This document shows positions 16,425-62,765 of a stretch of 64,000 nucleotides of DNA, piece by piece. The stretch's first letter is position 1, and each line of letters starts with the position of its first letter. The DNA comes from Styela clava (Eukaryota): the NCBI RefSeq assembly GCF_964204865.1, contig NC_135260.1, positions 14,570,001 to 14,634,000 on the forward strand, in the 5' to 3' direction. The notes under the pieces were generated by a model. The model was not told where the DNA came from, made no database searches, and was given only the letters and a program-made list of their open reading frames with translations. The translations under genes were made by a program, and so were the position numbers.

Positions 16425-19256
16425 TAAGTTTATTTCGTCGTGCAAGAAATCATAACACAAATTCAAAATAGGAAAAAGTACTTATGCATTACAGTAACGG
16501 ATTTCATTGCAATTAACTGGAAGTCGCGAAGGACCAGAGATGGTCATCATAAGTCTGCGACACCAAGATTAAAAAGGAGTTAATAAAATTTGAAATAAAT
16601 GAAAGCAATAAGCACGAAGAGAAACCTATTCATTCGATAATTAACCAACAAGATTGATATGAATCAGCATATATGATTTGGAAGAGAATGTAAAAATAAA
16701 AGTCGGGGAAATTCAATTGATATACGGTAATTATAAAAATAATTCACCATATCATTCAGCTGTACTTCCGTATAATTGCAGCGATTAAATTTTTTATCTA
16801 TTGTCATATGCAACACTAAATCGAGCGATCATTTTATTTGATGAAAAAAATTAAGCAACCTCCATGAACGAATTCTAAGGCACAACTTATACTCCATGTA
16901 CAACCAGCAACATATAATTAAGGAAGAAAATAAAATTTGGCCCAAGGTCGAGTTAGGCCTTAAGCGCATACATCGAGATCGGAGGCGACTTCAGCCACTT
17001 ATAGTTTCAGTTGGTTAGCTAACAGCGGTCAATCATTCATCAACGAACTGGAAAATTGTTTAGGTTGCTGAGCGACCGCACGCGCATTCAGAATCTGATT
17101 TATAGAGACAAAAAGTTTAGGGTAAGAAAAATAATACTATATCAGGCGACTCGGAAGCTATGTCACGGAACGGCAGTGAAGCGAACCGCTATTGTTTATA
17201 ATTTATATGACAAAGACGACAATAGGCCATGAAACTGTCAGCAAAGCTGCAGTTTATAAAGACTACCAGTAGTTTTTGAATAAATATTTTTTATATGTAT
17301 TCTTGAAGCAGTTTATAAAGACTACCGGTAGTTTTTGAGTAAATACTTTCTATATGTATTCTTGGAAGTTGTGTAGCCATGTGATTTTATTTCGTGTGAA
17401 ATATTGTTCCATATTTTGATACCTGTGTATTTGATTGAGTTTTGTGTTCTTGCAGTAGAATATTTGGGAGCAATATAATTTCCACGCGAAGAAGATCGGG
17501 TGTAATGTGCGCGGGTGTTACACTGCTTAGTAAAATATTTATCGAATGCTTCAGGTAGGGATTTATTTTGGTGTTGATACATTAGTTTTGCAATTTCAAA
17601 ATTATATAAGTTTTTCAATTTCAGAATGTTGAGTGTCGAATATAGCTGATTAATCTTAGTTCTAGGTGCTGCATTGCAAAGAGATCTAGCAATTCGGTTT
17701 TGTAAGACATTAATTTGTTTTAAATATTCTTGTGCAGCAGCTCCCCATGCTGAGATTCCATACTGAACAGAAGATTGAAAGAGTGAAAAATACACAGAGC
17801 GCAGGGTTGACGTAGGCATTTATTGTTTGAGCTTGTAGGTGATACCGACTGCTCTAGTTATTTTTTTCACCACATGCTCAATATGTTTGTCCCATTTAAG
17901 ACCAGAATCAGTAAAAATTCCTAGGTATTTGTATAACACATTTTCTAATTTGGTACTATCAATTTTTATTGATAAGTCATGGTTTACCTGTTGCTTTTGG
18001 GGAGTAATTATCATAAATTTTGATTTTTCAATATTACTTGTCAATTTATTTGAAACCATCTAATCATGTACCTTCAGCATTTCATAGTTTACAATATTCT
18101 CTAAAGTTAAAATTGATTTATGACTGGAAAGAAGACCGATGTCGTCAGCGAATAGTTTCGTTACTAAGAGCAGTTGGTGGGATCATTAATATATATTAAG
18201 AAAAGGATTGGGCCAAAACTTGATCCCTCTGGGACGCCACAAACTATTGGTAAAGTTTTAGATGCTACATCGCCATTTTTTACAAATTGAACTCAGTTCG
18301 TTAAGTAGCTATTTAAAAGTGATTGGAAGAAATCCATAATTAGATAGTTTATGAAGCAAAATTTTGTGGTCAACTGTATCGAATGCTTTCTTCAAATCGA
18401 TGAAAACAGAACAAACAATCTCATTATTTTCTAATTTGTCATAGATGTAAGACATCATGTCTAAAATAGTATATGGTTTGTTGAATGGTTGTCCCTAAAT
18501 CCAAATTGAGATTTATTTATTATATTATGTTTGTTGATAAATTTTACCATTCTTTCATATATAAGTTTTTCAAAAAGTATGTTTAAACAAGAAAGAATAT
18601 AAATAGGTCTGTAGTTAGATATTATTTTATTATCACTAGATTTTAAAATTGGTGTTACTCGAGCAATTTTGAATACTGAAGGGTACATACCCAGCTGTAT
18701 TGATTCATTGAACGGAATCATAAGGACTGGCGATATTATGTTTACAATATGCTGAAGGAAACATGATGGAATGTTATCAGGACCAATAGCTTTGCCCTTT
18801 TTTAGGCTTGAAATACCACCTATTATTTCTGAGAGTAAAACAGGCTGAAGAAATATGGTTTGCGAGATCTTCAAAAGGAAGTATTTTTTGTAATCCGAAA
18901 CATCATTAAATTGACTGGCTAATTTTGGACCGATGTTAGTGAAATAGGTGTTGAACTCATTTGCTATCAGCAACTTTATTAGTTTATTACTTTATAGTTT
19001 TATTTTGTAACATAATTTCTGTAATAGTATTCTGTTTGTCATTTTTAACATTTACTATTTCTTTGATTGTTTTTCATGTTTGCTTTATATTGTTTCGGTT
19101 TTGCTTAAGCGTATTATGATAATGAAGTTGTTTAGCTTTCTTTATTTTTCCTTTCAGTTTGTTGCAATACCTCTTGTATAAATGCTGCTGTGACATGTTA
19201 CCTTTCAAATAGGACTTATTGCGCATTTTATTTTTGATGGACACTCGTATACCCAC
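16425..19256 (-). mobile_element. 5'-truncated, degenerate non-LTR retrotransposon (CR1/L2/Crack-like ORF2 reverse transcriptase plus 3' UTR)
   Basis: ORF fragments IANEFNTYFTNIG, KAIGPDNIP, SNYRPI, SQFGFR..HST, FIDLKKAFDTVDH, CGVPEGSSFGPILFLIYIND, KLFADD, YKYLGI, YGISAWG, with frameshifts and stops. Putative 3' end CGAAATAAAC at ~16430; the 3' boundary is approximate. Confidence 0.9.
17249..17366. repeat. 59-bp tandem duplication at the LINE ORF2 stop codon
   Basis: GCAGTTTATAAAGACTACCxGTAGTTTTTGAxTAAATAxTTTxTATATGTATTCTTG twice. Confidence 0.85.
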
Positions 19257-21956: not shown

Positions 21957-22239
21957 TCACGGAGAGCTCTCTCGTTTTACAGCAGATTTGTCCCCATCAG
22001 CATCTTCTGTAGTTATACAAGGTATCCTGCCACTGCTTTGTGATTGGTCAGATTTTGTCGAAGACTTGTCGTCGTCCATTGAAAGTTGAAATTGAAACTT
22101 TGCAGCCGGAGAATTGTTGGACTGAGGTTGAGGTGTCCCAGAATCGCAGCAAGAACTTTCATCTTGACTTGCTTCAGCGGTGTGACTGTCGTCAGATATG
22201 TCCGCACTTTCAGCGCCGTCTTCGGGAACAGGAGAGGGA
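21957..22239 (-). CDS. PDE4: PDE4 last coding exon (ERK-type PxSP site, FQF motif)
   Basis: ctttag|(S)PSPVPEDG...[13 protein letters not shown]...RESSP-TGA; the splice creates PGSP. Confidence 0.92.
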
Positions 22240-25200
22240 CTAAAGAGGAAAATTGCCATTTAATTACATTCACTACAGGCTATGAAATCTGAACGCTTAC
22301 ATAATATTTCATCAACGAGTTGACTATAGCAAAAAATAAATTCTTATTCTAATAAAATTAAAAAAGCTTACCTTCCAGGCATTTGCTGGCTATACCATTC
22401 TCTGTTCGAAACCAATTGATCGACAATTTCCTGAGCATTTGGATTAACCAAATCCGCCCACGTTTCCCAAAGTGGGTAAGCAATGTAGTCGATGAAAATG
22501 ACCTAAAGAAGAAAAAGGATAATTGTTTATTCCATTCAATTGAAAAGAAAAAATATTAATCAATCCCGGCCAAGTCGGTGCCAAAGTAATATGTATTTGA
22601 ATCTTTTATATTTACCTGAGAGCGCTCCACGGAAGCAGTGTGTCTGTCACACATGGGACTGATTTCGAGTCCTCGATCTCTTTCCACGTCTCCTTGAAGC
22701 CAATATTCGTTCATAACTCGGTCTGTCCATCCTCTGTATAGTTCTAGTGGTTTGGTAGGATTGCTCAAATCGGCGCAATGAATCATATTTTGCAATACTT
22801 GGATTCGGTCGGTGTAGTTATCAAGCATGAGTACACCGGATGTAGCTACTTTCTTCGTTTCCACCATTGTCTTCAAATTAGCCAATAGTTGCATGTGTTT
22901 TGACATGTCGGTTGCGAGTACCTGGATAACAAATGATAATAAACAGATTAGCATAAAGGTATTACGTAGAAAAGACGTAATATAATGAGTAGTAAACAGC
23001 TAAATCACGCCAACGATAATGGTGTTATTGAATTATACTCATAGCAAGTTATCAGAATTTGTTTACAAGGCTCGTCTTCCTCATCACTTAAAATGATAAT
23101 GACGTCATATTTATTGGAAGACATCGAAACTATTATATTACGTCACAATACACAAGACGACGTAATTGCATACCGGGGGTTGGCGCAGAGTGCCGTCGTT
23201 GCTTGGTACCGCGAGGACTTGGCTAACTACCTCATAAATCATACGCCATACATGGGATGTGCATAATTAGGACTTATTTTTATTTTATAATTTATTTTTC
23301 AGTTAGAGTTCGCTTAGTCAGAACAAATGATAGTGAGTGACGAGTTCTTGTGGTAACTTAATCGAATACAGTCTCCATAAACAATTTTGTTTTTTTGTCG
23401 ACGCTATTGATCTCCGGTAACTATTCGAATCTTCAAGTAGGGGCAATTTCAATAATTTTCAAAATTTGAGGTTACGTTTGTCTGAACGGTGAACTTATAC
23501 TAGTTTCAATTTTAATACGAAACTAATGTTGAGGTACCATCAAATCTGATGGTGAAAATTAGTCTTAAACGAGGCTACGGTTAAACTTACCATGTCAATA
23601 ACAGTCTTTCTAAAACTCTGCCATTGTTTTCTAGTCAAGTTTTCGAATAAGTCGCAATCTTTTTGCTGCATGAGTTTGAAACCAACAGCCAAATGATGAT
23701 TTTCCAAAACCGATTCGTCGTTATACATGATTGCCAGTTCGCTTCCTGGTGAAAGAAAGGTCATAGTTTAGAAGATGGAACTGGAAATTTCACCTATTGT
23801 ATATAAAAAAAATTAGAAGCATAACTTACTTGTAGCACAATGAAATTGATTATTGAGACCGGGATGGTCAACGTCATGCATAGCGCCTGCAAACAGTGCC
23901 GCCAGGATTTCGATTTCAGTAAAGACGCTCTAAAATGGCGAAAAATAAAAACATCGTTATCAAAAGAGTTCTGTCAGACGATGCTATACTATTATAATCA
24001 ATTGTGGTGACATAAAGTAATACTGATAATGGTAGACGCCGATAATATTTGTACGTTAACCGCATAACAATGAATCATAACGAAATTTAATCAGAAAAAA
24101 AAAATGATCAAAAATTAAATCAAACTCACGTCGAGGGCAGCAGACGACAATAAAACGTGCACAGACTGCAAAACGTCGGCAGCGTGAATATTGTTGTGGA
24201 ATGGAACTTTACGATAATGGTCTTCGAGTGTCATTACGTATGCTAAACATTTTTGCGGAGAAATTTTATATTTGTTCAACATGTCGCGTTTCTGTTAAAA
24301 AAAATAAAATTTTTAGAATACAAAAAAACAAAATAAACATAAATTAATAATATGTATTTCAAAGCACATAAGCTATGTAACTCCGTTAAGCAATAATATT
24401 TAAAAAAAAAAACGTAATTCGGGACATTACCTGCAAAATATTGTATAAAGTAGCAGATAGAGGTCGTCCGTTTGTCATTTCAGAAACTTTAAAAAGGTTG
24501 ATGCCACCCCAAACGTCCACACCATCGAGTTCCTAAAAATATGAGAAATTGAGTAAATTTGGTTATCAATTCGATCGAGCATTCTAAGAAAATCGGGAAA
24601 CATGCCGTTACCGTAAAATTCACAACAACGAAAAAACAAAAAGGCGAAAAAGAAAGCGCGGGCGCGGTTTCGATGCCTCACGAAAAATTGTCATTAGCGC
24701 GTTTTTTGCTAATTTATCTGGTTAATTCTTCCGACACGCACAAACACGAAGCTATACTCAATACTTGTTCTTTGAAATCCGTTTTACCGGTAATTTGATA
24801 AATAAACACTTTTTAGGAGCATTTTAAATTTACAATGTGTGGTTTATGTATCGAAAAACGCAGTTACTGCAAATTCTAATCATCCACATAATCGTGATTA
24901 CATGAAAATACCAGTTGTTTTGTGATTTATTTTCTATGATGGGTTGTGAGCGATACTCTGAAAATGCTCGGTAATGAGTTGACTTGTAGATGATATCTCA
25001 TATGTATAGGTCACGTAAGGCTTTCCGCTCAACTAAATCATAAGCAATTGTTAATAACCAATACATGAGTGGCTTACGTCGACGGCGACGAGACCAATAG
25101 GAAAACATGTTTTGCGTTCATTGATACGAAATATTTTTATCGTCGTCATAAAAATCGATAAATCGTTTAGGGGTAATATAAAATCTATTATTTTTATATT

Positions 25201-28200
25201 CAAATTAACAGTTTTATTTTTATTTTACTCATACACATAATCATATGAGCAACATACCATTTTAAAGTCGTGTTAGACGAGCAATACTCTAATTAATAAA
25301 TAATCACGTAATAGGTGGAGGTATATACAGGGTTTAGATTTAGACCATTTTGAACAGTTCAATAAATTTACAAAAATTATTACTGGCATATATGTAAGAT
25401 ATATGTTTTTCACGGAGAAAAATTCTATGACTCTTAAAAAGAAATTTCTGCAGCGATGACACGGATTTCGTTGATATACGATAACTAGAACACGTTTCGT
25501 CTAATTCAAATAAACACAGCCGATAATGCGATAATAAAAGGGCGTCGGAGTCCGATTGACCGCACAGCAATAAAAAAAGCAAATAAAGTTATTATTTCAC
25601 ATTTTTAAGATTGAATAAAACAGCAAAAACAAAATAACGTTAGACAACGCATAACCGAATAAGGCGTCACCGACCAATGGCGAGTATTAAAAGTTGCACT
25701 CAGCGAGAAGTTGTTGTGGATCGATCTTTCGCAGAATTGATTCAACTGGTAAGAATGTCTAATACAATATGATTAAGAAGTCAGCTTTCATCCAACGACC
25801 TTGGGACGAAATGAAATCTAACTTATGACGTCAAACAAAAATGAGATATTAAACCCGACCACTAAGGTCGCAATAGAGCCGCAAAGTCTATAAAGAGGTT
25901 TTATGACTGTCACAAAACATGCATACCTTTGCGAGCGCGCTTTCGTTGTTGACGACAACACCAAATGTCGGTATTGTTTTGAACTTGAGAATATTTTCAC
26001 GATGTTTGTTTGCTTTCTTGTTTATACCTGTCAAATAAAAATAATAAATAAATAGATTAAAAATCTAGGTTGGCCAGCAACGAGGTGAGAATTCGTAAAT
26101 TACAGACAGAGATGCAAAAGTTACCCACGTAAAGAAATATAATCAAGGTACATACACAGCACATACATATGAATAGAACTACTGGAAGTGACAGATGTTT
26201 GTTGGATAACATGAAAAATTTATTTGTAAAGTAAGGTGTCTGGATTTGAGTCAACTAATAGTATCAGAAGCATTAGCATCCTGTAGAGACACATCTGGTA
26301 CTATAAGGCAAATAATACGTTTGACGGCCACATTTATAATAAGTTAATACAAATTCGGGAAAATATTTTGATACTGTTTTGCACTAGGAAAACTAAATGA
26401 TCTTTCTAAGTAATAAACGCAAGTTTTATAGCAGAACAATAAAAAATAAGATTGTTTATCTCAGTTAGGTCAAAATTCTTCATTTGAACAAAGAAAAATC
26501 ATTTTCTCCTTTTTATTTAATTCATTTTAATTGCCATCTACAAGTAACTGTAGTTCTTTAAGAATATTTTATTATTTTTTATACAATCTTTTCAAAAGAA
26601 TTCCTGAAATTTATATCGTCAGACCAAAACAAGTCAACATATAAGAGTGCTACAAAAATTCAAAATCAAAAAGTCAAAAATTTAAAAAGTTGAATTTTTT
26701 GAACGCACGAAATCGGCATATTACGACAGTTTTGAATCCAGTTGTAACAAAACACAATAATAAATGCTGTAATGTACCTGAGACCATTCCCATAACTTTG
26801 CAATTGGGGTTGAGTTGATATTTTGTGCTGGGTTTGTGATTTTGCTTAATTGCTGCGTAATTCGGAGACGCTGGTCTTGGTTCCTCTTCTGGGTCAGTTG
26901 TCATCATGTCATCTTGGTGATCTACAGAAGAAAAATTTTTACAGGTCAGAATTTTTTTTTTAAATATATGATATCAACCGGAAAGTACCGGATATACACG
27001 CTTCATTTCCAGGTCGATACATATTCAAATATTCTACTTTAATGTAAAATCAATTGGAAATTATAAAATAAATTGAAATGTGCTAAATAAAACGGTTGTT
27101 TCTAAGTCAACCAAGTACATGCGTGAAGACACGAAAATTGGCATTTTCCTATTTCTAGTATTATAAGATAAAATTCATCCGAAGAATATTACGCGTTACG
27201 GCCTAAACGTGACGGCCTGATTTTTTTGTCGTCCTCTGGAACCCCCGGGGCGAATTTATTCTTCAATATGAAGAGGGAATAATATAATGAGATATACTGA
27301 TATTTCGTCACGCCGCGCGCTTAGTGTGTGTGCATGTGTTTATTTATTTATTCATGTCTATCCGTGTGATAAATTATCTAAAAAAATGATGATTATACCG
27401 ATCAAGTAAGGTACAGTAGTAAACACCACACAATTTTTTTTTTTTTATAAATCCTAATGTCAGATTTAGTGATGCTGGTATTAAGATATGGGAGCCGCCA
27501 GACGCAAATGCGTTGGCAAAAATCGACAAGTCAACGAAGGAACAGATGCGTCTGGTCAGTAATTTCACTGAAATAATCCCCCCTATCAGAGGTTAACAAT
27601 CAAAATATCGATTCGGAGGCAAATTGCACACATTCAGAATCCAATTTGTACATAACAATTGACAAATATGCAAAATACGTACTGGTGATCGACCGAGCAC
27701 AAGCTGGCTCATAACAGTAACAGTGCTTTATACATCCGTTTAAGCAGGGCCTGTCGCCTTGAAACAAGTCACCGTTTGTAGTCCTGCCGTCCGCATGGAA
27801 ATCTTTATGAAGTTGCACGGTGAACGACCGGGTGGCGGCGTTCCATGACGCCGACACACCTTCTGCGGCAAAATATGTATCTTTCTCGAGGGATGAAGCC
27901 AGGCTGGCAACATGGGAACATATCCTATGAGCATGATACTCTGCCGTTTGATTTATGTCCGGGTGGGAATGGGGGCGGATAACAGCAGCATAGTTGTTAT
28001 TGTTGACGTCGTCAGTAGCAGCCACCGGCAAAGAAGACCTCCTGGTCGACGGTGGCTTGTTAATAGATCTAGCCTGTGACACTCTCCTTTTCATATTATT
28101 CGGTAGCATAAATTGTTCGCTATATCTTCGGTTTGCCGTACAAACAGACATGGCAACTTTTGCCTTTTTAGAAGACTTTGAATGAGACGATTTGAACCGT

Positions 28201-31200
28201 TTCGGTTTCAGTACCGCCACGGCGGCCTGGGCCTCCTTCTGGGATCTCGCCCTTGATATTAAATTCCACTCCTCGGTAGTAAGATAACGATCGTCGGAAT
28301 CCGGGCGCTTAAGATTTGCGAAATATTTGATAACCATGTCGCAAAATTGCATGACGTGGTTCGTAATAACTAATTTTAAAGGGTCTATTCTATGGAACAA
28401 AATAAAGACATTTATCGTTTGAACAAACCCATTCACACTATACTAGCTAACATAATTCAAGTGCAAATATCACAATATTAATTTTCTAAAACCTACTCAA
28501 AATCTACAACTACAAAATATATAATTCTTTCTGGCGCGTAACATCCTACCTCCCAAGCCTCACTGGTAGACTGAGCATCCGCGGCCTGTCAGTGAGTAAT
28601 AATATACCCGGAAAGGTCTGTTTCCATTGACGTCATTGCGTCGCTCGCTGGGAGCAAGAAAGAAACAGAGCAGACGAGCGAGAACAAAAACGAGAGAAAA
28701 AGACAAAAAGAGCAGAGCGGGCGCCCAATCGAAAATTGCATTGCTGCGACGCTTCAACCCGACTTTTCGAATCGCATTATGTTACATTTCATTTGTATAG
28801 GGAAGACAAAATTCGAATAGTTTAATTATAAAGAATTCACAATGTTCAAAATATTTCAGATATATATCGCACTGATCTTGCGATCATTATACATTTTTGA
28901 TATGTCAATTTTAGTTTGAGACTCGTCTATATTCTCCAAAATGATTGGTATAAGTTTAAATGGCATATTCATACTCTTGGACATTCGTTCTTTAATCATC
29001 GAATTTATTGATCACGGCTGAATCTAATTGGTTTTGACGTCAGGCACGCCGTGTCCAGTAACAGAATCCGTTTGACGTCACTACGAAAACGTGTCTCTAC
29101 CGCTTATTCATAGGTGTAGCTGGACTTCGTTCATTCTTTTATAATTTTCATCGAATTCCTACTAAAACCATCAAGGTACTGTTGAGATGCGATACACTAA
29201 AAATGGGCATGGTATATAGATATCTCACTTTTTTTATCTCAGGACTGCAGCGCGAAAACGCCTTAAACACGCCCACTGGGTCAGCGGGGTACGCTGATCC
29301 AAAGGCATGGGACGCATACCACATGGCAAAAATCCAGATACGCTATCGCTAAATACTGGTACGCGAATATCACGCCATGTGATAGAAGAAATATGGGGTC
29401 ATTGAAGGCTAGGTAGGTCTGGGGACGTCACATACTCGGAAGTTTACGCACACGATGGAAAACCGACGCAAAACGTCACGTAAAGTCAATAAGATGACAC
29501 ATACTAGTACTAGTATATTATATTAAATTATAACCATGAAAGTGGGGCATACACGAGTGAGTCGCTCCAAACGGGGGCGTATTATTGACGTCATCAATGA
29601 TGTAAGGCTAATTTGATCAACAAAGCGTAATTGTCTTTACTAGTATTTATGCGTAAAATATTTTAATTAATGTAATCCAACAATTCGTTACGTATGTGAT
29701 AGTAGTGCATGAGATAAATGCGATAAATACACGACCAAATACACTCAGGTACGTATGATTTTTGTTACGCGATAGAAGGAATTTATTAAAATGGAAAAAA
29801 AAAATACTAAATCAATTGATGATATCATGAGAAATACTTAAAATTGCAAGTATGGCCATAAGGAATATACAGAAAATAATTCCGGATTCTCTATCGGAAA
29901 TGAGTAAAAAATGGGAATCTCAAACTTCCATACAAAACTTGTGAATGTTTTTCCCCGTATGTGCTATATATACTGCACCCATTGTTACTTGACCGTTTAT
30001 TTAAACCTTAACTTCAATTCAATCTGTATTGGAAGCAAATGAAAGTCCCACAAAATAACGCTTTTATGTATAGTAGTAATGTTATATCACAAAAATAGCC
30101 GCGAACATGTTCTGGTTGCATTATTCAACGTAACAATAGAAAAATACCAAGGTCATTGTTTTACCGAATGCACATGACAACTACCAAGAACATCAGGCTA
30201 ATTTAATAGGGAATAGCTCCAGAAATGACATAACGGAATATATCAATTGTTTTTAAAATGCACGCCCTGTTATTGTCTGTTTGATGACGGTCATTGCTTG
30301 GGGAATGGAAATTTCAATATTATAATTTATCCGGGAATTACTCACAAAAAATACAAAAACGCAAAAAAAGAATGTGGGACAACCCAGAATAGAAAAATGA
30401 CTTCCTTTTTTGATCAATGTTCAACATTGAATTTGAATTTGTCGTTCTGATGTATAATATATGGAAAGCAGTAATTAATGCACGAGGTAACGACTCACAA
30501 TTTTGCCCATAGTATGGACCATACCAAACCGATGGTTATGATCGAACATAATGTTTAACGACACACTTTACTGGTTGCAGGGCGCATCCAATTACTAACT
30601 GGACAGACATCTCTACCAACGGCCTATAGATTTAAATCAGACATCTGTTGATAAAATTCAACAAAAAGCTACAATTATGTGTATCGATTGTCATACTATA
30701 CAACCTTCAATCAGCAACGTGATAATATAGACATATTATACCATGAAATCGATATCAGGTTATGACAATCGACGAAATGCTATCGAATTTAACGGTAATG
30801 AGATCTCCTGCTGTGCTGCACAAGGGGATGAATTATTGCATGTGAATAATTGTCTTGCTGTAAACGCGAAAGTATCGTAATACGAAATCGCGGTTTTCGT
30901 CCGTCTGCACGTACTTTTGACGTAACAATTGGTGACATTAGTAAAGTAATCAACAGAGTAATCACTGTTCGGAATTATGCATGGATATTTCATTTTGAAA
31001 TATACTTTTTTCGAAAATCAAATAGAATTTCAGCAATTCACAGCAATGTGAAATTGTCTCCAGCGGATACCTGATACTAGATCACAGCGTCTTCATCGAT
31101 GAAATTTACTATCATTGATTGAAATTGTGGGGAACAGATTTCCCCCAATGACGTCATTGGTGGCTTTATCAGAGACCTAATTGGACTGAACTTAGCTTTT

Positions 31201-40200: not shown

Positions 40201-43200
40201 TTGTATAAAAGTATTGTATTCATCATATCGGTCAACGCATGGACCAGTGAAAGATCAAGTTTCAAAATTTGAACAAGGAGATGCACTCGGAAATAATTTT
40301 CTATACTTCGTTTCATCAAATTACTAACGACAGCCAATCAAATTTTACAGAAGTAGACTCAGGACATCGCAATGTCTAACAATATATTGTAAGGCGTAAT
40401 AGTAGAATAGCAAACTATTGCACGGGGACATCTGAAACAATGGGATTCATGTTTAAATCATGTCGCAATACGACAAAGGAGAAATCTGTATTTCTGTATT
40501 GCAACATTTTTTCCAACGTTATCTTTTATATTCGGGTATTTAATACATACCGCGTTTAGCTAAAACACAGTGCTCATTGAGTACTTGAAAATTCAGGAGT
40601 ACTTCGATTTACAAACCACAGAGCTTGCTATATTGCACAATTTTGTTTCAAAATCAGGACGCGGTGTATCTACCATCGTCACTACGCAACGTAAAGTGCC
40701 AATTTAAGGTAGAAAGGTGTATTTGTCAGGTGTTGTTGTCAACTGTAATTTACACACAGATTTGAATAATTACAGCAATTCTGACTGTTCTGAGACGGTA
40801 TTGTATAATAAGGGCATCAGGCTATTATACAATTCGAATTCTGTAAAAATACGAAATTTTATGAAGCGCGGTGCGTACATGAACCGGCCCTGCCAAATAT
40901 TTTTCATTAGTAGTTTATGCTTGATAAAGCGTGAGTGTACCGTCCAAGTAACTAAAATCGTCAATGGTACATTTTGCCATAATGGCATGTTTCTATATCG
41001 AACTCTTGGTGTCTTTGTCACGCATGTTTTTGAACCCGACTCCTCGACCACATCATGAGATTTAACTACCGGTGTATAGGTTTTGAGAAAATAAAAAAGT
41101 TCTCGTATCATGTGATCGAAGATGTATTCTCCAATCCGGGCGTATTCCCAAAACATAGAACGTAATTATTTATAGGTTAAAATAAATAATAACGTAACAG
41201 TTGGTTGCCATCGAAATATACAAAGCACAACATATTAACTTCTCATGCCAGCATATTAGATATATCAATTTGAAACGCCACGTTTTCTGGTATATGAGTT
41301 GTTATTTTAAACACACTTAAACGCAAAAATCACTGAGGATAACTACTGTCAAAATATTTAAATTTCATAGACTTAAGGACTACTTTGAAAAAGGTGTTAC
41401 GGGGTCAAGTAAAAAATGAGAGATTGAGTTTCTGACAGATATATTCATTATCATATTACCGACAAGATGCTGCAAGAAAGTTCAACGACCCAGTATTGGA
41501 GATCATTGATCTAGACAAGAAAGACTTGTTCGCTGTTTGTTCAATGTTCAGCGCGCATTTGTGGTTCAAAACCCAAGTCTAGCCGAAGGGCAACCAACGT
41601 ACGATAGTGGGATAGGCTTGTCTTGGCTGGTTATCGCATTCCTAAGATATGACGCGAGTTATAACAAACTTATCAACGGATCAAGTATGTTTATGGTGTA
41701 TAGAAGCAACTATTATATTAACCATAAGATTCAAGTACAAATTTTACATATAATCTCATATGGAGCCAACCGTAACTTATCGCAATTGCTCTTTATCGAA
41801 GATGAACCACGATCTGTATTATTAATAAATTTAATAAATAAAACTTTTCCGTTTCATAACCCACATTAGATATTCTTGTACTGGCTTGGTATATCATTGA
41901 AACGCGCCAAGAAGGCTCGGTTTATGTGTGACCAATAAAGAACAATTCTCAACAAGAGATAATATTAGCTCAAATAGTAAATTTTAATTCAGTGAAGCGA
42001 ATCTAATTGGACTGAAAGTACAATAATGAATTATGAACATCATTTCTTGTGGTACGAGTTCAACTTCAGGTTTTGTCTTTGGAACCTAATAGAGGTAAAT
42101 GTATGTATGGGTAGGAATGTAAATTTTTACACACGTTACGGTCGTTAACTTTCCTGAGCAAACAATGCTATAACTCAACTTGAGACAGTCTAGTCATTCC
42201 AAATCAGGCTGTTCCGCTCTCGTAGATAACACAAGAGAAAACTGAGGCGCGTGGGCGCATGTTTCTGTCATCATGCTCGTTTATGACGTAATAAGAGGAT
42301 TAAGTTTTCGCAAGGGGTCGATTTACTTTTAGTCCGAGATTGAAATCGCTTTCAAGCGCAGTTGTGCGTATATTCAACCGCGCCTGAAGAATTCTTTGTG
42401 AATGACATCGTGCGAAAAGGTCCAATGGTGAAATATCCTACTCTTGCGAAAATGCTGGAATGACTGCGCGTTTTTAAGCCGCGACAAATGGGTACTTGTA
42501 TATCATATATGAATACTTCAGAAGGCGTGTGAGGATTTTGATATGACGTATAAAGTGGGAAGATTTGATGGACTACTGAAGTGGACATCTTATGACAATT
42601 ATGACCAATTGCAGCTTAAAGTGGGTGACGTTATATATTGGTTAACATCGAATAAACGCTAGCCACCTCGGATGATCTCATCCTAATATTCTATAATTGC
42701 GAAGGCGGTGTACAATAATGGCGGAAACAAATGAGTTAGATGTGATGTAATCATGCTGATTGCTTTTAATGTTGCGTACGTTTCGATTTTAAGTTGAAAA
42801 TGTCACAATTTGCGGACTACGTAATATTTCAGCAATATACGCAGAAATAGCTGATTAATTGGTAATTTTTTACAACAAAAAATCCCTGAAAGGAAAGTGG
42901 TAATTTTATGTGAATTTTTCGAAGATAATTACCATTAACCAAGTGCCATACATGACTGACACTATCTACCCTTGATTCATACTTGGCAGTGAGTAAATGG
43001 GAAATTAAAGCTAAACACACCTGTGACCATAGCTCGAATTAACAAGCTATTTCGAAATGGTCCATACTTGAAACGTGAACCCCATATTGATAAACTACAA
43101 ATCAATCCAATAAAATATCAAGCGAAGTCAAAATATTTTGTCCATAACGATGAATATCCTATTCAATTGATCACTAAACAACCATTTACGCATGTCATAT

Positions 43201-55200: not shown

Positions 55201-58200
55201 CTTTGAGTCGCACGAACAATGATGCTTTGTGAAATACAATTAGCCAGAATAGGCTCATTTTTGTTTTATGGAACGTGATAATACCAACTCTACGGACGTT
55301 TTCATCAAATCGCATAGGATATAAAGCTAGAGAATTTTCAAAAAAATCATTCTGCTGCAGCACCGTGCATATAGAACGAGTAAGCCTTGCTCGACACGTA
55401 AGAACACCATAAGATTTCCTTGTCATTCCCACACATTTGAAAATCATATTTTTAACTTTACACTATCTGAGCAGTGCACCTTATGCATATATACGATTTT
55501 GTCGATGATAAACTGATTATTTTAAATCAGCGCGAAGCCTAATTCCACAAAACATAGAAAAACTCACCTAAGTATGTAGCTGATATAAATTCAGAGACTT
55601 GATTTCCTGATTTGCTACTTTCGGAAAGATGATTCAACTCGCGGTTCAGCATTCTCTTGAACTGTAAAAGGAAATGATATAAGAGTCATATACTATAGTC
55701 GGTTCATCAGAGTCTTAGACAATGATATTGTTCTAAGGCAAAATGCATAAAAGCAATGGCGATGAAACATGACTGTGAAATTTGATGAAAAAAACACATA
55801 AATCTTGATGATATCGATTCGTTCACGTTCAATAATTTCACCCAGTCGCGCGCAGACTCGAACAAAAAATCGTTTCGTTCGCGACCAATATTTTAATTCT
55901 ACCGGAGAAAAGAGCGTTTCGTTCGCGTTCAAGATCGTAAAAATGAAAGTCAAGTTCAATATTCAGCTGAATTACTATAAAACAAATATAAGTCGTTTCG
56001 TGCATTCATTAACTTCGCCTGTGCTTGTTTTCACATCGAATTTCAATTTTATGGGCTCATAGTCCGTATTTGAGAAACCCGGGTAGTAAAATGAAATAGT
56101 CTTGGACCGTGAAGACAAACACACCATTTTAATGTGTTTGTATAACCGTATGTGTAACATACCCTAGGTCAGTGTTCCAAATCTGACTCGCATGTTTTTT
56201 CATCAAAAACCTAAATGCTATTGATTCTAATTTGAAGTAAATTTTATTGTTAATTATATAATTATTAGTAATTATATTTGTGGGGAGTATTACAGCGTAA
56301 AAACTAGGAGGCATATATTTTGCTCAAATAGAGAAACGCCTCGATCTGAAAAAATCGCTGATCGCAAACAAATAATAATGTTGAAACAAAAAATAAGTAA
56401 ATAAATATTATGCAAAAATTATTGTTTTTTGGATTAGTAATTTAATTTTGCGGCCAGAGAAGTACAACATGTAGTTTGGTATTCACGCATATCATTGGGT
56501 TGCGAGATTATACGAAATTCATTATGTACATAATCTAGGTCGCTTGAAGAAATGGCTTGAAGACACTGCTCCAGGAAACAAAATAAAAACGAAATACATA
56601 ACGTATTTGTTCTGTGAGTGGGCAGACCACAGATGTCCGACAATGTTCAAACGTCATTTTGCCAGTTATATAAGATTGATGAAATCGATATAAAACACTA
56701 TTTACACAGCTAATAGCTAAATAACCAACAACATTTAGTACATACAGCTCTGTGAAACAACACGCGATCGTAAACGTAAACGAAAGAATCTACATCAGAA
56801 ATTTCTCAATCCCATTTTCTCAAATTTCACATGGAAGTCTGAGGTGTGTATTTCTTAATCCTTTATGAATTGGATGGCTCGAAACTGCCAGCGTAATGGT
56901 ATTTTCGAAAAAAAAAATAGGTTTCGGGTAATTTTTGATGCAAATGAATCGAAATTGAATTGTTGAATGTAAATGAATCGATTCAAGGGGGACTACAGAA
57001 ATGAAAATAACTACGAAAGGTATACATGATGCACTGCATTATGGCCGATGGACTTACGGCAGTTCAGGTTGATACGATTAGGAAAATAGCTGTTGAGTGG
57101 TGAATTTCACAATTTAGAATTACCGATCCTTTATAAATACTGATATTCATGTTTGCCTATTTGGGTTGACTTTACCTTGTTCGACGCCATATCACTGACA
57201 GAACGATGTGTTTGCACTGTTTCTAGTTGATCGAGACACCAATCTAATTCCTCTAAAGTTTCCAATGATTGTTTTTTGAATTCTTCGGTACCTGATAAAA
57301 TGAAGGCAAATTTTTAAGATAAATTTGAAGTTAAAAAAAAAAGGGATAACCGTGTGTATAATAAACATGTGATGTTCATTCTTTTTGGTGGGGGGAACCC
57401 CAATGAAACATTCCAGAAGCTTGAGGAAGTGGGAATAGAAAAATCGAGGAACTATCTTATTCGCAAGGCTGTGGAGTGGTAGAAAATTTACAATCGACTA
57501 CAACTTTGGATTGAAAAATATTTTGGCTCAAACTCAAAATCAATTCCAGCTCCAAAACTCCACAAAAATCAAATTGTGACAACGTAAAAGTTTTGCCGAA
57601 TGCAAGCCTTCTTTGATGAACTGCTAAGATCACTAAGTTAAGTTAATGCATTCTCAGTTTTAGTAGAAGGTTTTGACTTGTCACCATTGAAAGTTTGCAA
57701 CTCTGATTTAGAGTTCGAAATTATAATATTTGACATGGGTTCCGACTACAGTGAAAACATGCTCAACTTCGACCCCCATACCCCTGCTTATTCGACCCGT
57801 ACCAATCCGACGATAATATATATGTATAGTCTCACACACAGCTAACTGTCATCCATGGATCAAACATGATTTACACATCGAAAGTATGAGCCTCTGGTTC
57901 ATAAAAATATGTATGGTAAAAATATGTAACCACAATATGGTTTCAATAGTTATGAAGTAAAATGTCATACCGTATACAAAGGCTGGAGTGGGTGTTTGCT
58001 GCCCACTAGCGGTGAAAGTAGGACTGCTGACGCGAGGTGTTTGTCCTACCGGAGATCGTCTGAAAAAAATACATTATTTAGTGATTTGGTATCCAAGTTT
58101 AACAAAATGAAGTTTTTCATGGGTATATCTTTTTTTTCAAATATTACATATCAATCATATGTCTAATTATATGACGATTACTTCTAATCGTTAAAATAGC

Positions 58201-61200: not shown

Positions 61201-62765
61201 CATGCAAAAATGACCGACTTAATTTTTTCCGGGTTTTGCATAAATTCTTTTTTTCACTTTGGTGATTCAACAATTACAAAAAATTAATACATACATCAAA
61301 CAGGTTGCGCATTTATTGTTTTGTTATTTTGTTCGGTACGCTACAGATTAAATCGGTTTTCCGGAAATTAGCAATACAATCAGCTTACCCCAAAACAAAA
61401 ACAGTCAACCTACACTGCAGAAAAAAACGTATGTTCGTGGCAATATGACGATTAATTTTGCAGATTATAACTCAAAGTAATGACTACTCATGAATGTACT
61501 ACTCGTCATCAAATAATTGTGAAATCACATTATATTCTACATGTTTTTTTTTTCTAAGTATCTGGCGAATAAGGAAATAGATGCTGAACGCTCCGTCCAC
61601 TGTTTACTTTACACATTATTTCATTTTAACTAGAGATAAATAAAATGTAATTTGAAATTTTGAATATTCTGAGCTAAAGTTTTAACTGCCTAGAATCAAA
61701 ATTTGACTAAATTCCGAACTAAATTTGAGTAAATGCGAAGACAAATTTCCTATATTTCAAAAGCTTTCTTTTTTTTAAGCAGCACTCTACTATCTCAATC
61801 GACCTAATAGAGTTTGGTAAAGGATTCCAATGCAAGTGAAATGCTATCATATTTATTATATTAATTTGGTATTCCGATTCACCTAGTCATGTGTTATGGT
61901 TGAAAATTTATAATAGCTTTTGTGCTTCGTGATAGAATCGTGACAGATTATGTTAAATTTAAAAGCACACTGGTATTCGTACATATTTTAAAGCAATATC
62001 TACAGCGGCCACAGTAGTGCCATTTGCATAGAATGTACAAGGTGACCCGAAAAATAGACCCATGGTATTTGGACATATGATAGAGAGAACATAACTTTTG
62101 TGCAAAACGTCCTAAATTACTGAAACGTTTAGGTACAATCATAAACAACATTAAAGGGTTTTAGTTTTTTAGGTCATACATGAGTGAGCTTAAAGTAAGT
62201 TCAATAACATATCTAACATACATAATATGCAGTTAAAGTTCGTACGACCTCTGGTACGTTTACAGTCATCGTAAAAACCAAAACATATGGTAAATAAGGA
62301 GCGGTCACGAATCCTTACTCGAAATTGTATCATTTCTGGGAAATCGAGAAGATATATACTTGTAAATAAACATAAATCTAATCATTGTGCAAATACGCTT
62401 TACCGCAAGTGAAAAAATAAACAACCGATTGAAAATGACGATTCTATGATGCGATTTAGGGAACGCAGGAAAACAGTTCAGATGTAGATTGTAGAGAAGC
62501 CAACATTGTCAAAAACCTGCGAAGAGTGCGAATTCATCAAAAAAAAAATACTTCAAAGTACACTTACGTATCGCTGACAATAGAAGAAGCCCTAGATGCC
62601 ACTTTAGGCGACTGTTGATCGAATTCAGCATCTGATCTATAGAGAAATGATTCCCGTCGTTGACTATGAGCTTGAGTAGCTGGATGAAGAATGAGGCCTG
62701 ATCCTGGTGAGGACTGAGAGTCCATTGGTACTCTGCCGGGTGCAATTCCATTTTCGACGTCAAAG
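21957..62765 (-). CDS. PDE4: cAMP-specific 3',5'-cyclic phosphodiesterase 4, long form; 15 exons, 5' exon not in window
   Basis: Hand-spliced exons with AG/GT boundaries and consistent phases: 62765-62568, 59311-59272, 58621-58551, 58059-57971, 57291-57176, 55661-55568, 26921-26778, 26027-25927, 24532-24431, 24291-24130, 23929-23830, 23745-23591, 22921-22616, 22502-22372, 22239-21957 (2092 nt, ~696 aa). Motifs: UCR1 [12 protein letters not shown] and [16 protein letters not shown]; UCR2 [14 protein letters not shown] and FKRMLNREL; catalytic [39 protein letters not shown]; C-tail KFQF. Confidence 0.97.
22372..22502 (-). CDS. PDE4: PDE4 catalytic exon, C-terminal helices
   Basis: ctttag|[43 protein letters not shown]|gtaagc. 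Confidence 0.96.
22616..22921 (-). CDS. PDE4: PDE4 catalytic exon (306 nt)
   Basis: atccag|VLATDMSKH...[21 protein letters not shown]...[15 protein letters not shown]|gtaaat. Confidence 0.97.
23591..23745 (-). CDS. PDE4: PDE4 catalytic exon
   Basis: caccag|[51 protein letters not shown]|gtaagt. Confidence 0.96.
23830..23929 (-). CDS. PDE4: PDE4 catalytic exon (HD motif)
   Basis: ttttag|[33 protein letters not shown]|gtaagt; PDEase signature HDxxHPGxxN. Confidence 0.96.
24130..24291 (-). CDS. PDE4: PDE4 catalytic exon (HNxxH metal-binding motif)
   Basis: aacag|[54 protein letters not shown]|gtgagt. Confidence 0.96.
24431..24532 (-). CDS. PDE4: PDE4 catalytic exon
   Basis: tttag|[34 protein letters not shown]|gtaatg. 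Confidence 0.95.
25927..26027 (-). CDS. PDE4: PDE4 exon, linker region 2 part b / start of catalytic domain
   Basis: ttgacag|[34 protein letters not shown]|gtatgc; resembles vertebrate IPRFGV...LAK. Confidence 0.92.
26778..26921 (-). CDS. PDE4: PDE4 exon, linker region 2 part a
   Basis: ttctgtag|(D)[47 protein letters not shown](G)|gtacat; phase 1/1, completes the conserved TYLD. Confidence 0.85.
27600..28352 (-). CDS. Uncharacterised intronic ORF, 250 aa from first ATG (nested gene or PDE4 alternative exon)
   Basis: Longest ORF in the window (278 codons open), GC-richer than its flanks and on the same strand as PDE4. Contains RRYS, RRVS and RRSS motifs. Acceptor tract ttttattttgttccatagaatag at 28385-28407, promoter-like module upstream, AATAAA cluster at ~27339-27352 downstream. 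No recognisable domain. Confidence 0.6.
   Translation of the reverse strand: MQFCDMVIKYFANLKRPDSDDRYLTTEEWNLISRARSQKEAQAAVAVLKPKRFKSSHSKSSKKAKVAMSVCTANRRYSEQFMLPNNMKRRVSQARSINKPPSTRRSSLPVAATDDVNNNNYAAVIRPHSHPDINQTAEYHAHRICSHVASLASSLEKDTYFAAEGVSASWNAATRSFTVQLHKDFHADGRTTNGDLFQGDRPCLNGCIKHCYCYEPACARSITSTYFAYLSIVMYKLDSECVQFASESIF
28550..28635 (-). promoter_or_regulatory. Putative internal cAMP-responsive promoter (CRE, TATA-like, Inr) with short non-coding first exon
   Basis: TGACGTCA at 28628-28635, TATATTATTA at 28606-28597, TCAGTC Inr with +1 A at 28572 (TATA about -34), donor GAG|GTAGGA after 28550. Confidence 0.5.
44741..44895. repeat. Minisatellite, ~34-bp unit, ~4.5 copies
   Basis: Unit approximately GAACAGAGGTTTTCGGGACGGCATCACGGAATATG. 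Confidence 0.85.
49814..49940. repeat. Imperfect tandem duplication, ~75-bp period
   Basis: TTATCACAxGTAAGTTGAxATACT...ATTGTGCATTGAACT twice. Confidence 0.75.
55568..55661 (-). CDS. PDE4: PDE4 exon, UCR2 C-terminal half (94 nt)
   Basis: ttttacag|[32 protein letters not shown]|gtgagt. Confidence 0.96.
57176..57291 (-). CDS. PDE4: PDE4 exon, UCR2 N-terminal half
   Basis: ttttatcag|[38 protein letters not shown]|gtaaag. Confidence 0.96.
57971..58059 (-). CDS. PDE4: PDE4 exon, linker region 1
   Basis: ttttcag|[29 protein letters not shown]|gtatga; phase 2/1 bridges the neighbouring exons exactly. Confidence 0.88.
58551..58621 (-). CDS. PDE4: PDE4 exon, UCR1 C-terminal part
   Basis: ttcag|[23 protein letters not shown]|gtaagc. 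Confidence 0.95.
59018..59036 (-). promoter_or_regulatory. CTCF-like motif in a PDE4 UCR1 intron
   Basis: Minus strand GGTCCACTAGATGGCACTA matches the CCACYAGRKGGCRC core; motif match only. Confidence 0.4.
59272..59311 (-). CDS. PDE4: PDE4 exon, UCR1 (40 nt)
   Basis: ttttcag|[14 protein letters not shown]|gtatgt. Confidence 0.95.
60503..60614. mobile_element. Palindromic MITE with perfect 35-bp inverted arms
   Basis: 60507-60541 is the exact reverse complement of 60576-60610; the spacer contains AACCCTAACC. Lies among TACAGGGTG Tc1/mariner-like ends (60154-60162, 60361, 60482). Confidence 0.8.
62568..62765 (-). CDS. PDE4: PDE4 exon, UCR1 N-terminal part
   Basis: cacag|C TTT GAC... translates [65 protein letters not shown]|gtaagt; contains the PKA site RRESF. 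Confidence 0.96.

What the first reader, a model, noticed from the sequence alone, without database searches (positions are those of the whole stretch)
27339..28635. Candidate cAMP-inducible, PKA-targeted transcription unit hidden in the PDE4 intron between UCR2 and the catalytic domain
Seen: on the PDE4 strand, in order, are a full CRE (28628-28635), a TATA-like box (28606-28597), a TCAGTC Inr (+1 at 28572), a donor (GAG|GTAGGA, after 28550), an acceptor tract ending at 28390 or 28385, a 250-aa ORF (ATG 28352, stop 27600) and an AATAAA cluster (~27345). The protein is basic and Ser-rich, with three R-R-x-S sites (RRYS, RRVS, RRSS) and a Cys-rich tail ([16 protein letters not shown]). Established: CRE-driven internal promoters give vertebrate PDE4 short forms cAMP feedback induction, but those promoters lie upstream of or within UCR2, not after it. 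Inference: this may be an undescribed feedback module in which cAMP/CREB induces a nested gene or novel isoform whose product is itself a PKA substrate.
Basis: partly seen in the sequence, partly recalled or inferred. Interest (0 to 1): 0.8.

Follow-up and report, generated by a model that had tools for sequence, protein, structure and literature searches.

The report
Alternative first exon of tunicate PDE4
The supposed hidden gene is most likely an alternative first exon of a sea-squirt cAMP-degrading enzyme (PDE4): it gives a version that drops the usual control regions and carries a different front end with likely kinase sites, a form present as an automatic database prediction but not tested.

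Summary
A phase-1 donor after codon 223 (27683) joins it in frame to the next PDE4 exon (26921). A ten-exon GT-AG chain translates exactly to a 717-aa RefSeq model, Styela clava PDE4D-like isoform X12. That protein has a complete catalytic domain and no UCR1 or UCR2. The exon is single-copy. Two unnamed homologues (54% and about 30% identical) stop matching at the donor; codons 224-250 are read-through into the intron and the AATAAA cluster is at background frequency. All three R-R-x-S sites are kept in the near homologue, one (plus an R-x-x-S) in the distant one. Full CREs are enriched over the PDE4 locus, four within 1.3 kb of the ATG, but the proposed TATA box and start site are not above chance. 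Best reading: an internal promoter, plausibly cAMP-responsive, makes a UCR-less PDE4 with its own PKA-site-bearing N-terminus. Splicing rests on a database model and conservation; no read-level evidence was obtained. Induction and phosphorylation are untested. A new variant of known PDE4 isoform biology.

The parts
29586..29593 (.). Full CRE palindrome, most distal of four within 1.3 kb upstream of the ATG
   Evidence: flanks match no other CRE flank among 35 compared
29035..29080 (.). Pair of full CREs (29035-29042, 29073-29080)
   Evidence: region 28800-30200 single-copy in G000
28628..28635 (.).
28597..28606 (-). Weak TATA-like sequence; function unverified
   Evidence: 2 mismatches in 8 to TATAWAWR
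28550..28574 (-). Candidate Inr and 23-nt non-coding leader ending at a GT donor; unverified
   Evidence: no ATG in the leader; arrangement not above chance
28385..28410 (-). Pyrimidine tract with two AG acceptors (28390, 28385); the second keeps the exon in frame with the upstream UCR2 exon
27683..28384 (-). Alternative PDE4 exon, 702 nt, phase 1 at both ends; coding from ATG 28352 (223 codons + 1 nt)
   Evidence: homologues P0001 and P0003
28032..28130 (-). Three R-R-x-S PKA consensus sites (S78, S92, S107) in a basic segment
   Evidence: 3 of 3 kept in P0001, 1 of 3 (plus R-x-x-S at S92) in P0003
27702..27956 (-). Conserved segment, residues 133-217: predicted helix plus 3-4 strands, invariant Y139 H140 H147 W170 and H210-C-Y-C-Y214; no family assigned
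   Evidence: 48 of 85 and 23 of 85 identities; model pLDDT 55; no clear fold match
26922..27682 (-). 761-nt GT-AG intron; holds the donor GTACGT (27682-27677), the unconserved read-through codons 224-250 and the AATAAA cluster 27339-27352
26778..26921 (-). Shared PDE4 linker (LR2) exon that receives the new exon (residues 224-271)
21957..26027 (-). Eight further shared PDE4 exons (26027-25927, 24532-24431, 24291-24130, 23929-23830, 23745-23591, 22921-22616, 22502-22372, 22239-21960) and stop TGA: catalytic domain and C-terminus
   Evidence: exact translation to P0004; PF00233 positions 1-238 of 238; best PDB matches PDE4D and PDE4B
55568..57290 (-). Two UCR2 exons (57290-57176, 55661-55568), absent from this isoform
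   Evidence: PF18100 PDE4_UCR hits; boundaries
62567..62765 (-). UCR1-region exon with the RRES PKA site of the long forms, absent from this isoform; 3' boundary not fixed
   Evidence: translation, acceptor; no Pfam hit for this piece alone; naming it UCR1 rests on the RRES motif (PMC5526615 passage) and position

Best explanation
The ORF is the first coding exon of a PDE4 isoform made from an internal promoter near the 3' end of the 28.6-kb intron that follows UCR2. Codons 1-223 splice to the linker exon at 26921 and on through the catalytic exons, giving a 717-aa cAMP phosphodiesterase with no UCR1 or UCR2 and a new 223-aa N-terminus. Shown: the in-frame GT-AG chain, its exact match to a RefSeq model, conservation that ends at the donor, a complete catalytic domain, CRE enrichment. 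Inferred, each about even odds: CREB acting on the CRE cluster induces this isoform when cAMP stays high; without the UCR2 cap the enzyme is monomeric and highly active; PKA phosphorylation of the R-R-x-S sites changes where it sits or how active it is, the conserved helix-plus-sheet segment serving as a targeting or docking module. That would be a delayed negative-feedback arm of cAMP signalling. The confidence given is for the isoform anatomy (first exon, UCR-less); splicing into PDE4 in any form is about 0.9.
For: Donor found from sequence before the database protein was seen; P0002 then matched residues 1-224 at 99% and continues into PDE4. P0004 equals the ten-exon GT-AG chain exactly; P0002 differs from it at 2 of 717 residues and has the same junction. 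No PDE4_UCR hit in P0004 while both UCR2 exons hit it; no profile match of the new exon to the three UCR exons. Identity to P0001/P0003 is 48 of 85 and 23 of 85 in residues 133-217 but 0 of 25 and 2 of 25 after the donor. Both homologues have S-T-(Y or end) once, where homology stops, which is what a conserved A|GTAC.TA donor would encode (rough chance 0.006 and 0.014; their DNA was not seen). One DNA and one protein match in G000. TGACGTCA is the most enriched of 256 palindromic 8-mers against 170 kb of distant sequence (p 1.2e-5); 9 of the intron's 10 CREs lie within 11.6 kb upstream of the ATG.
Against: No read-level evidence for any junction or start site. The RefSeq record is a computed model of this same locus and its supporting evidence was not seen. 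Both homologues are free ORFs ending in or near the donor; no spliced full-length homologue from another species was found (1 hit, P0002 itself, among 8,000 scored candidates). The exon is symmetrical and in frame behind UCR2, so it may be a cassette. Only 1 of 3 full R-R-x-S sites is kept in P0003. CRE density in the 200 kb of flanks is also raised (21 sites), so the local contrast is smaller (20 in 85 kb inside the inferred gene span against 15 in 179 kb outside, p 0.002, span chosen after seeing the data). The core promoter is not above chance.
Confidence: 0.7

Rival explanations
1. [quoted passage not shown] It may coexist with first-exon use.
For: Acceptor 28385 gives phase 1 at both ends, length a multiple of 3, and no stop in frame after the UCR2 exon. 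P0001 is also open for 11 codons upstream of the matching Met. [quoted passage not shown]
Against: The only long protein holding the exon starts at its ATG (8,000 candidates scored, weak evidence). The alternative acceptor 28390 is out of frame. One frame in three fits by chance. The CRE cluster just upstream fits a promoter.
Confidence: 0.15
2. Stand-alone nested gene or intron-terminated product: an unspliced 250-aa protein polyadenylated near 27345, acting as a PKA substrate or decoy without a catalytic domain.
For: The frame stays open 27 codons past the donor, and three overlapping AATAAA follow. P0001 and P0003 are on record as free proteins of 230 and 229 aa.
Against: The tail is unconserved and differs in length (27, about 2 and about 8 residues). 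AATAAA occurs at 1.58 per kb. The homologues come from 2.1-kb and 1.1-kb contigs where a gene caller would read through a donor (inference). The RefSeq model splices at the donor.
Confidence: 0.08
3. Right exon, different 5' end: the acceptor at 28390/28385 takes a trans-spliced leader or another leader exon, with the true start elsewhere (for example near 28942); the CREs may act as an enhancer shared by several PDE4 promoters. This alters the promoter model, not the protein.
For: CREs are spread over the whole locus.
Against: No paper linking leader trans-splicing to Styela was found (0 hits).
Confidence: 0.4
4. Chance ORF or transposon remnant.
For: No Pfam family above cut-off; low Atlas recognition score; low-confidence fold.
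Against: Single copy (with the tool's caveat that common words are skipped); homologues at E 8e-65 and 7e-8; in-frame link to PDE4.
Confidence: 0.01

Closest known systems
RefSeq models XP_039273346.1/.2 and XP_039257702.1, Styela clava PDE4D-like isoform X12 (P0002, P0004)
   Same: It is this product: P0004 translates exactly from the window's ten exons.
   Different: An automatic name only; the record as seen says nothing on loss of UCR1/UCR2, PKA sites or promoter.
Vertebrate super-short PDE4 isoforms
   Same: Internal promoter, isoform-specific first exon, no UCR1, full catalytic domain. One review counts forms lacking all of UCR2 as super-short (PMC13095499 passage).
   Different: Four other papers define them by a truncated UCR2 (passages); here none of UCR2 remains. 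Short forms are described as not PKA-regulated, whereas this N-terminus has three PKA consensus sites.
Vertebrate dead-short PDE4 isoforms
   Same: Lack both UCR1 and UCR2.
   Different: Dead-short forms have a truncated, inactive catalytic unit; here PF00233 is complete and the metal- and substrate-binding motifs are present.
cAMP-induced PDE4D1/PDE4D2 from an intronic promoter
   Same: cAMP-elevating agents induce short variants from an intronic promoter (PMC10707411 passage); CRE dependence of such promoters is recalled, not read here.
   Different: Those products retain UCR2 in whole or part; induction here is untested.
Drosophila Dunce isoform classes and Schistosoma SmPDE4B
   Same: Dunce has five isoform classes defined by N-terminus and presence of UCR1/UCR2 (preprint passage); SmPDE4B has a large insert after UCR2.
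   Different: Whether a Dunce class lacks both UCRs could not be checked (source paper not found). No sequence similarity of the new exon to either was found.

Membership tests
PDE4 gene product | Complete class I PDE catalytic domain closest to PDE4 | tested here: met
   PF00233 1-238 of 238, E 1.2e-90; 43 of 45 PDB sequences at E<=1e-100 are named PDE4A-D, best PDE4D 4.5e-161
PDE4 gene product | Metal-binding His/Asp motifs, substrate Gln/Phe and P-x-S-P ERK site | tested here: met
   6 of 6 motifs located in P0004; alignment to human PDE4D
PDE4 gene product | Gene encodes upstream conserved regions | tested here: met
   PF18100 on 2 of 3 upstream exon pieces scanned
PDE4 gene product | cAMP-specific, rolipram-sensitive hydrolysis | not testable with these tools
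   needs an enzyme assay
PDE4 long form | UCR1 and UCR2 present | tested here: not met
   no PF18100 in P0004
PDE4 short form | Whole UCR2 present | tested here: not met
PDE4 super-short form (strict definition) | Truncated UCR2 retained | tested here: not met
   the exon 55661-55568 is not in the P0004 chain
PDE4 super-short form (broad definition, PMC13095499) | Lacks part or all of UCR2 | tested here: met
PDE4 dead-short form | No UCR1 or UCR2 | tested here: met
PDE4 dead-short form | Truncated catalytic unit | tested here: not met
CRE-driven internal PDE4 promoter | Full CREs near the first exon, above background | tested here: met
   4 within 1.3 kb; weaker against local flanks
CRE-driven internal PDE4 promoter | Defined start site with core promoter | tested here: inconclusive
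CRE-driven internal PDE4 promoter | cAMP-dependent induction | not testable with these tools
   needs treatment RNA-seq or a reporter
Nested intronic gene | Own conserved stop and polyA site, not spliced to host exons | tested here: not met
   unconserved tail, background AATAAA, in-frame donor; a minor unspliced product is not excluded
Known fold for residues 128-220 | Clear structural match | tested here: inconclusive
   model pLDDT 55

The most novel reading that the evidence does not exclude
Some tunicates have a class of PDE4 in which the whole UCR1/UCR2 regulatory module is exchanged for an unrelated 223-residue N-terminus: a basic arm with R-R-x-S sites and a small His/Cys-bearing domain of no known family. 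A CRE cluster induces it and PKA then controls it directly, so both arms of PDE4 feedback (induction and phosphorylation) are rebuilt in one catalytically active, UCR-free enzyme, which could set the degradation rate in cAMP-timed events such as metamorphosis.
Probability: 0.25. Interest if true: 0.7.

Novelty: new variant of a known kind. Interest (0 to 1): 0.42.

Why it matters
PKA control of PDE4 is described as working through UCR1 acting on UCR2, and forms without UCRs are described as inactive or, in one review, as an extreme of the super-short class. A conserved, catalytically complete isoform with no UCR and its own PKA consensus sites would show a second way to wire the same feedback onto the PDE4 catalytic core, and would be insensitive to UCR2-directed allosteric inhibitors. 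In Ciona, cAMP accumulation against PDE activity is proposed to time metamorphosis (PMC12176390 passages), so an inducible PDE4 is a directly testable part of that timer. The interest is capped because alternative first exons are the normal way PDE4 genes diversify and the product already exists as a database model.

Tried and rejected
RNA evidence: the run search listed 16 runs, 14 holding the stretch or part of it, 0 on record as RNA: no RNA holder listed; not used for or against. No reads or contigs were laid, so junctions and start site stay open. Complex prediction of residues 128-220 with the catalytic domain gave no answer (score 0.00 in two runs, alignment not used); not evidence either way. 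Folding: residues 1-223 pLDDT 39, residues 128-220 pLDDT 55; Foldseek 0 matches at E<=0.001; VIA-align best Z 6.2 (rmsd 4.8, 80 aligned) to an adhesion-GPCR extracellular region, within the range the tool calls common, not accepted. Atlas: no usable hit for the ORF; unnamed clusters at 0.90-0.91 for part of P0001, leads only. DUF1068 hit below cut-off. The new exon as a diverged UCR copy: probabilities 0.1-0.4%. An inverted pair 28523-28543/29763-29783 as transposon ends: both neighbouring stretches are single-copy. A profile search found no homologues beyond P0001-P0003. Genome-wide CRE excess as the cause of the CRE count: rejected for distant sequence (3 of 20 requested stretches did not exist), only partly for local flanks, where 9 of 10 left-flank sites sit in repeats. 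Literature: no listed title on an ascidian PDE4 isoform (14 papers; 11 listed; 8); two searches gave 0; the library lacks most subscription papers and no supplements were opened. Earlier scan findings: none.
Full report
Observation. The ORF 28352-27600 is the longest ATG ORF of the 8 of at least 100 aa in the window. It lies near the 3' end of the PDE4 intron 55567-26922, after both UCR2 exons (PF18100 hits) and 761 nt before the next shared exon. The DNA and the protein each match only themselves in G000, a 377-Mb genome (these searches skip very common words). The best other match of a PDE4 catalytic exon in G000 was 35% identical, so this looks like the only PDE4 gene.

The ORF is real coding sequence. 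A word-based search found one homologue, P0001 (54% identical, E 2.5e-64). A full HMMER search of 1.8 billion representatives found three proteins: P0002 (99% over residues 1-224, 717 aa), P0001, and P0003 (E 7e-8). P0001 and P0003 are unnamed Logan proteins; as G000 has no paralogue they probably come from other species (inference). Profile searches added nothing.

It is an exon of PDE4. A scan for donors inside the ORF gave two candidates, one being CCA|GTACGT after 27683 in phase 1, the phase needed by the exon at 26921. P0002 and its cluster mate P0004 are named Styela clava PDE4D-like, P0004 as isoform X12. A walk along the window requiring GT-AG introns gave ten exons whose translation equals P0004 over all 717 residues. 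P0002 differs at 2 residues and has the same junction. These are computed models of this locus, not independent proof, and their support was not visible. Independent support comes from conservation: identity to P0001 and P0003 is 31 of 37 and 10 of 37 in residues 1-37, 48 of 85 and 23 of 85 in 133-217, and 0 of 25 and 2 of 25 in 226-250. All three proteins show S-T followed by Y or the end exactly once, where homology stops; this is what a conserved A|GTAC.TA donor read through would give (inference; the homologues' DNA was not seen). The AATAAA cluster is three overlapping copies in a strand that has 1.58 per kb. So the 250-aa product is best read as exon plus intron read-through.

The product. 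P0004 has the full PDE domain and no PDE4_UCR hit; its best solved relatives are PDE4D and PDE4B, and six catalytic and ERK motifs are present. The new N-terminus does not resemble the gene's UCR exons. It is basic (pI 10.3 for residues 1-132) with three R-R-x-S sites, reached in 96 of 100,000 shuffles. All three are kept in P0001; P0003 keeps the third as RRAS and the second only as R-x-x-S. Residues 133-217 are predicted as one helix and three or four strands at low confidence, with invariant His, Trp and an H-C-Y-C-Y motif; no family or fold was assigned.

The promoter. TGACGTCA occurs 14 times in the window against 0.93 in shuffles and 4 times in 170 kb from 17 distant stretches; it ranks first of 256 palindromic 8-mers in that comparison (p 1.2e-5). 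Four sites lie within 1.3 kb upstream of the ATG; four of 14 within 958 bp arises in 1.1% of random placements. Against this, the 100-kb flanks hold 10 and 11 sites. Nine of the ten on the left sit in repeats, as does window site 13797; the right flank appears to hold further PDE4 first exons up to about 107 kb. Inside that inferred span there are 20 sites in 85 kb, against 15 in 179 kb outside (p 0.002, span chosen afterwards). The locus as a whole is CRE-rich, densest before this exon. In Ciona, TATA boxes lie at -32 to -29 and putative outrons are often under 500 bp (PMC4691747, passages), so a trans-spliced 5' end is an open alternative.

How it most likely works. An internal promoter makes a transcript that begins at or just before this exon and skips UCR1 and UCR2. 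In mammals UCR2 caps the active site and the UCRs mediate dimerisation and PKA activation (PMC13095499 and PMC10707411, passages), so the product should be an uncapped, probably monomeric enzyme (inference). CREB on the CRE cluster would raise it after sustained cAMP, and PKA sites on its own N-terminus would tune location or activity (inference, each about even odds). The main rival is cassette use: from acceptor 28385 the exon is 702 nt, phase 1 at both ends and open behind the UCR2 exon, with a precedent in Schistosoma SmPDE4B (PMC5526615, passages). A minor unspliced product cannot be excluded. No read-level data were obtained, so these are not separated.

Comparison and novelty. It is a PDE4 gene product. 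It fails the long, short and strict super-short definitions and the dead-short definition (catalytic unit complete), and meets one review's broad super-short wording (passages: PMC11232698, PMC10707411, PMC13095499, PMC11311937, PMC11941749). PMC11931042 (passages) held nothing relevant. Drosophila Dunce has five classes by UCR content (10.64898/2025.11.29.691281, passages); whether one lacks both UCRs could not be checked. Searches listed no title on an ascidian PDE4 isoform; only listings were seen for most, and supplements were not opened. CRE dependence of vertebrate short-form promoters is recalled; what was read is their cAMP induction from an intronic promoter. Verdict: a new variant of a known kind, already a database model, with a conserved N-terminus of unknown family worth testing. 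Interest 0.42.

Noticed in passing
G000:C14 upstream of the window (window-coordinate equivalents 67426, 79896, 95951, 106852; loci L030-L034), minus strand: Four long Ser/Arg-rich ATG ORFs (215, 301, 198, 191 aa). Three have a phase-2 donor (two at the ORF end) matching the phase of the UCR1-region exon at 62765; probably alternative long-form first exons of the same PDE4 gene. Three carry R-R-x-S/T sites and full CREs lie at 80266, 83757, 89982, 92623, 94255, 97098 and 104147.
   Followed up: partly
window 28352-28335: Met6 is invariant in the three homologues and P0003 starts there, so the used start codon may be Met6 rather than Met1.
   Followed up: no
window 13797 and L020 (five sites): A dispersed repeat family carries a full TGACGTCA; a second CRE-bearing repeat pair lies in the left flank. 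Repeat-borne CREs inflate background counts in this genome.
   Followed up: partly
window 17322-17819, minus strand: 165-aa ORF that resembles, from recall, the C-terminal end of a non-LTR retrotransposon reverse-transcriptase ORF; Pfam gave only a sub-threshold hit. A 59-bp tandem duplication overlaps its end.
   Followed up: no
window 28523-28543 and 29763-29783: 21-nt inverted pair, 86% complementary, 1.2 kb apart, bracketing all four upstream CREs; the region is single-copy, meaning unknown.
   Followed up: partly
window 27860-27854, minus strand: A second phase-1 donor-like site (AAG|GTGTGT) inside the exon could give a shorter in-frame N-terminus of 164 codons.
   Followed up: no
window 40770-41156, minus strand: 128-aa ORF in the same large intron, 41 kb region; not searched.
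   Followed up: no
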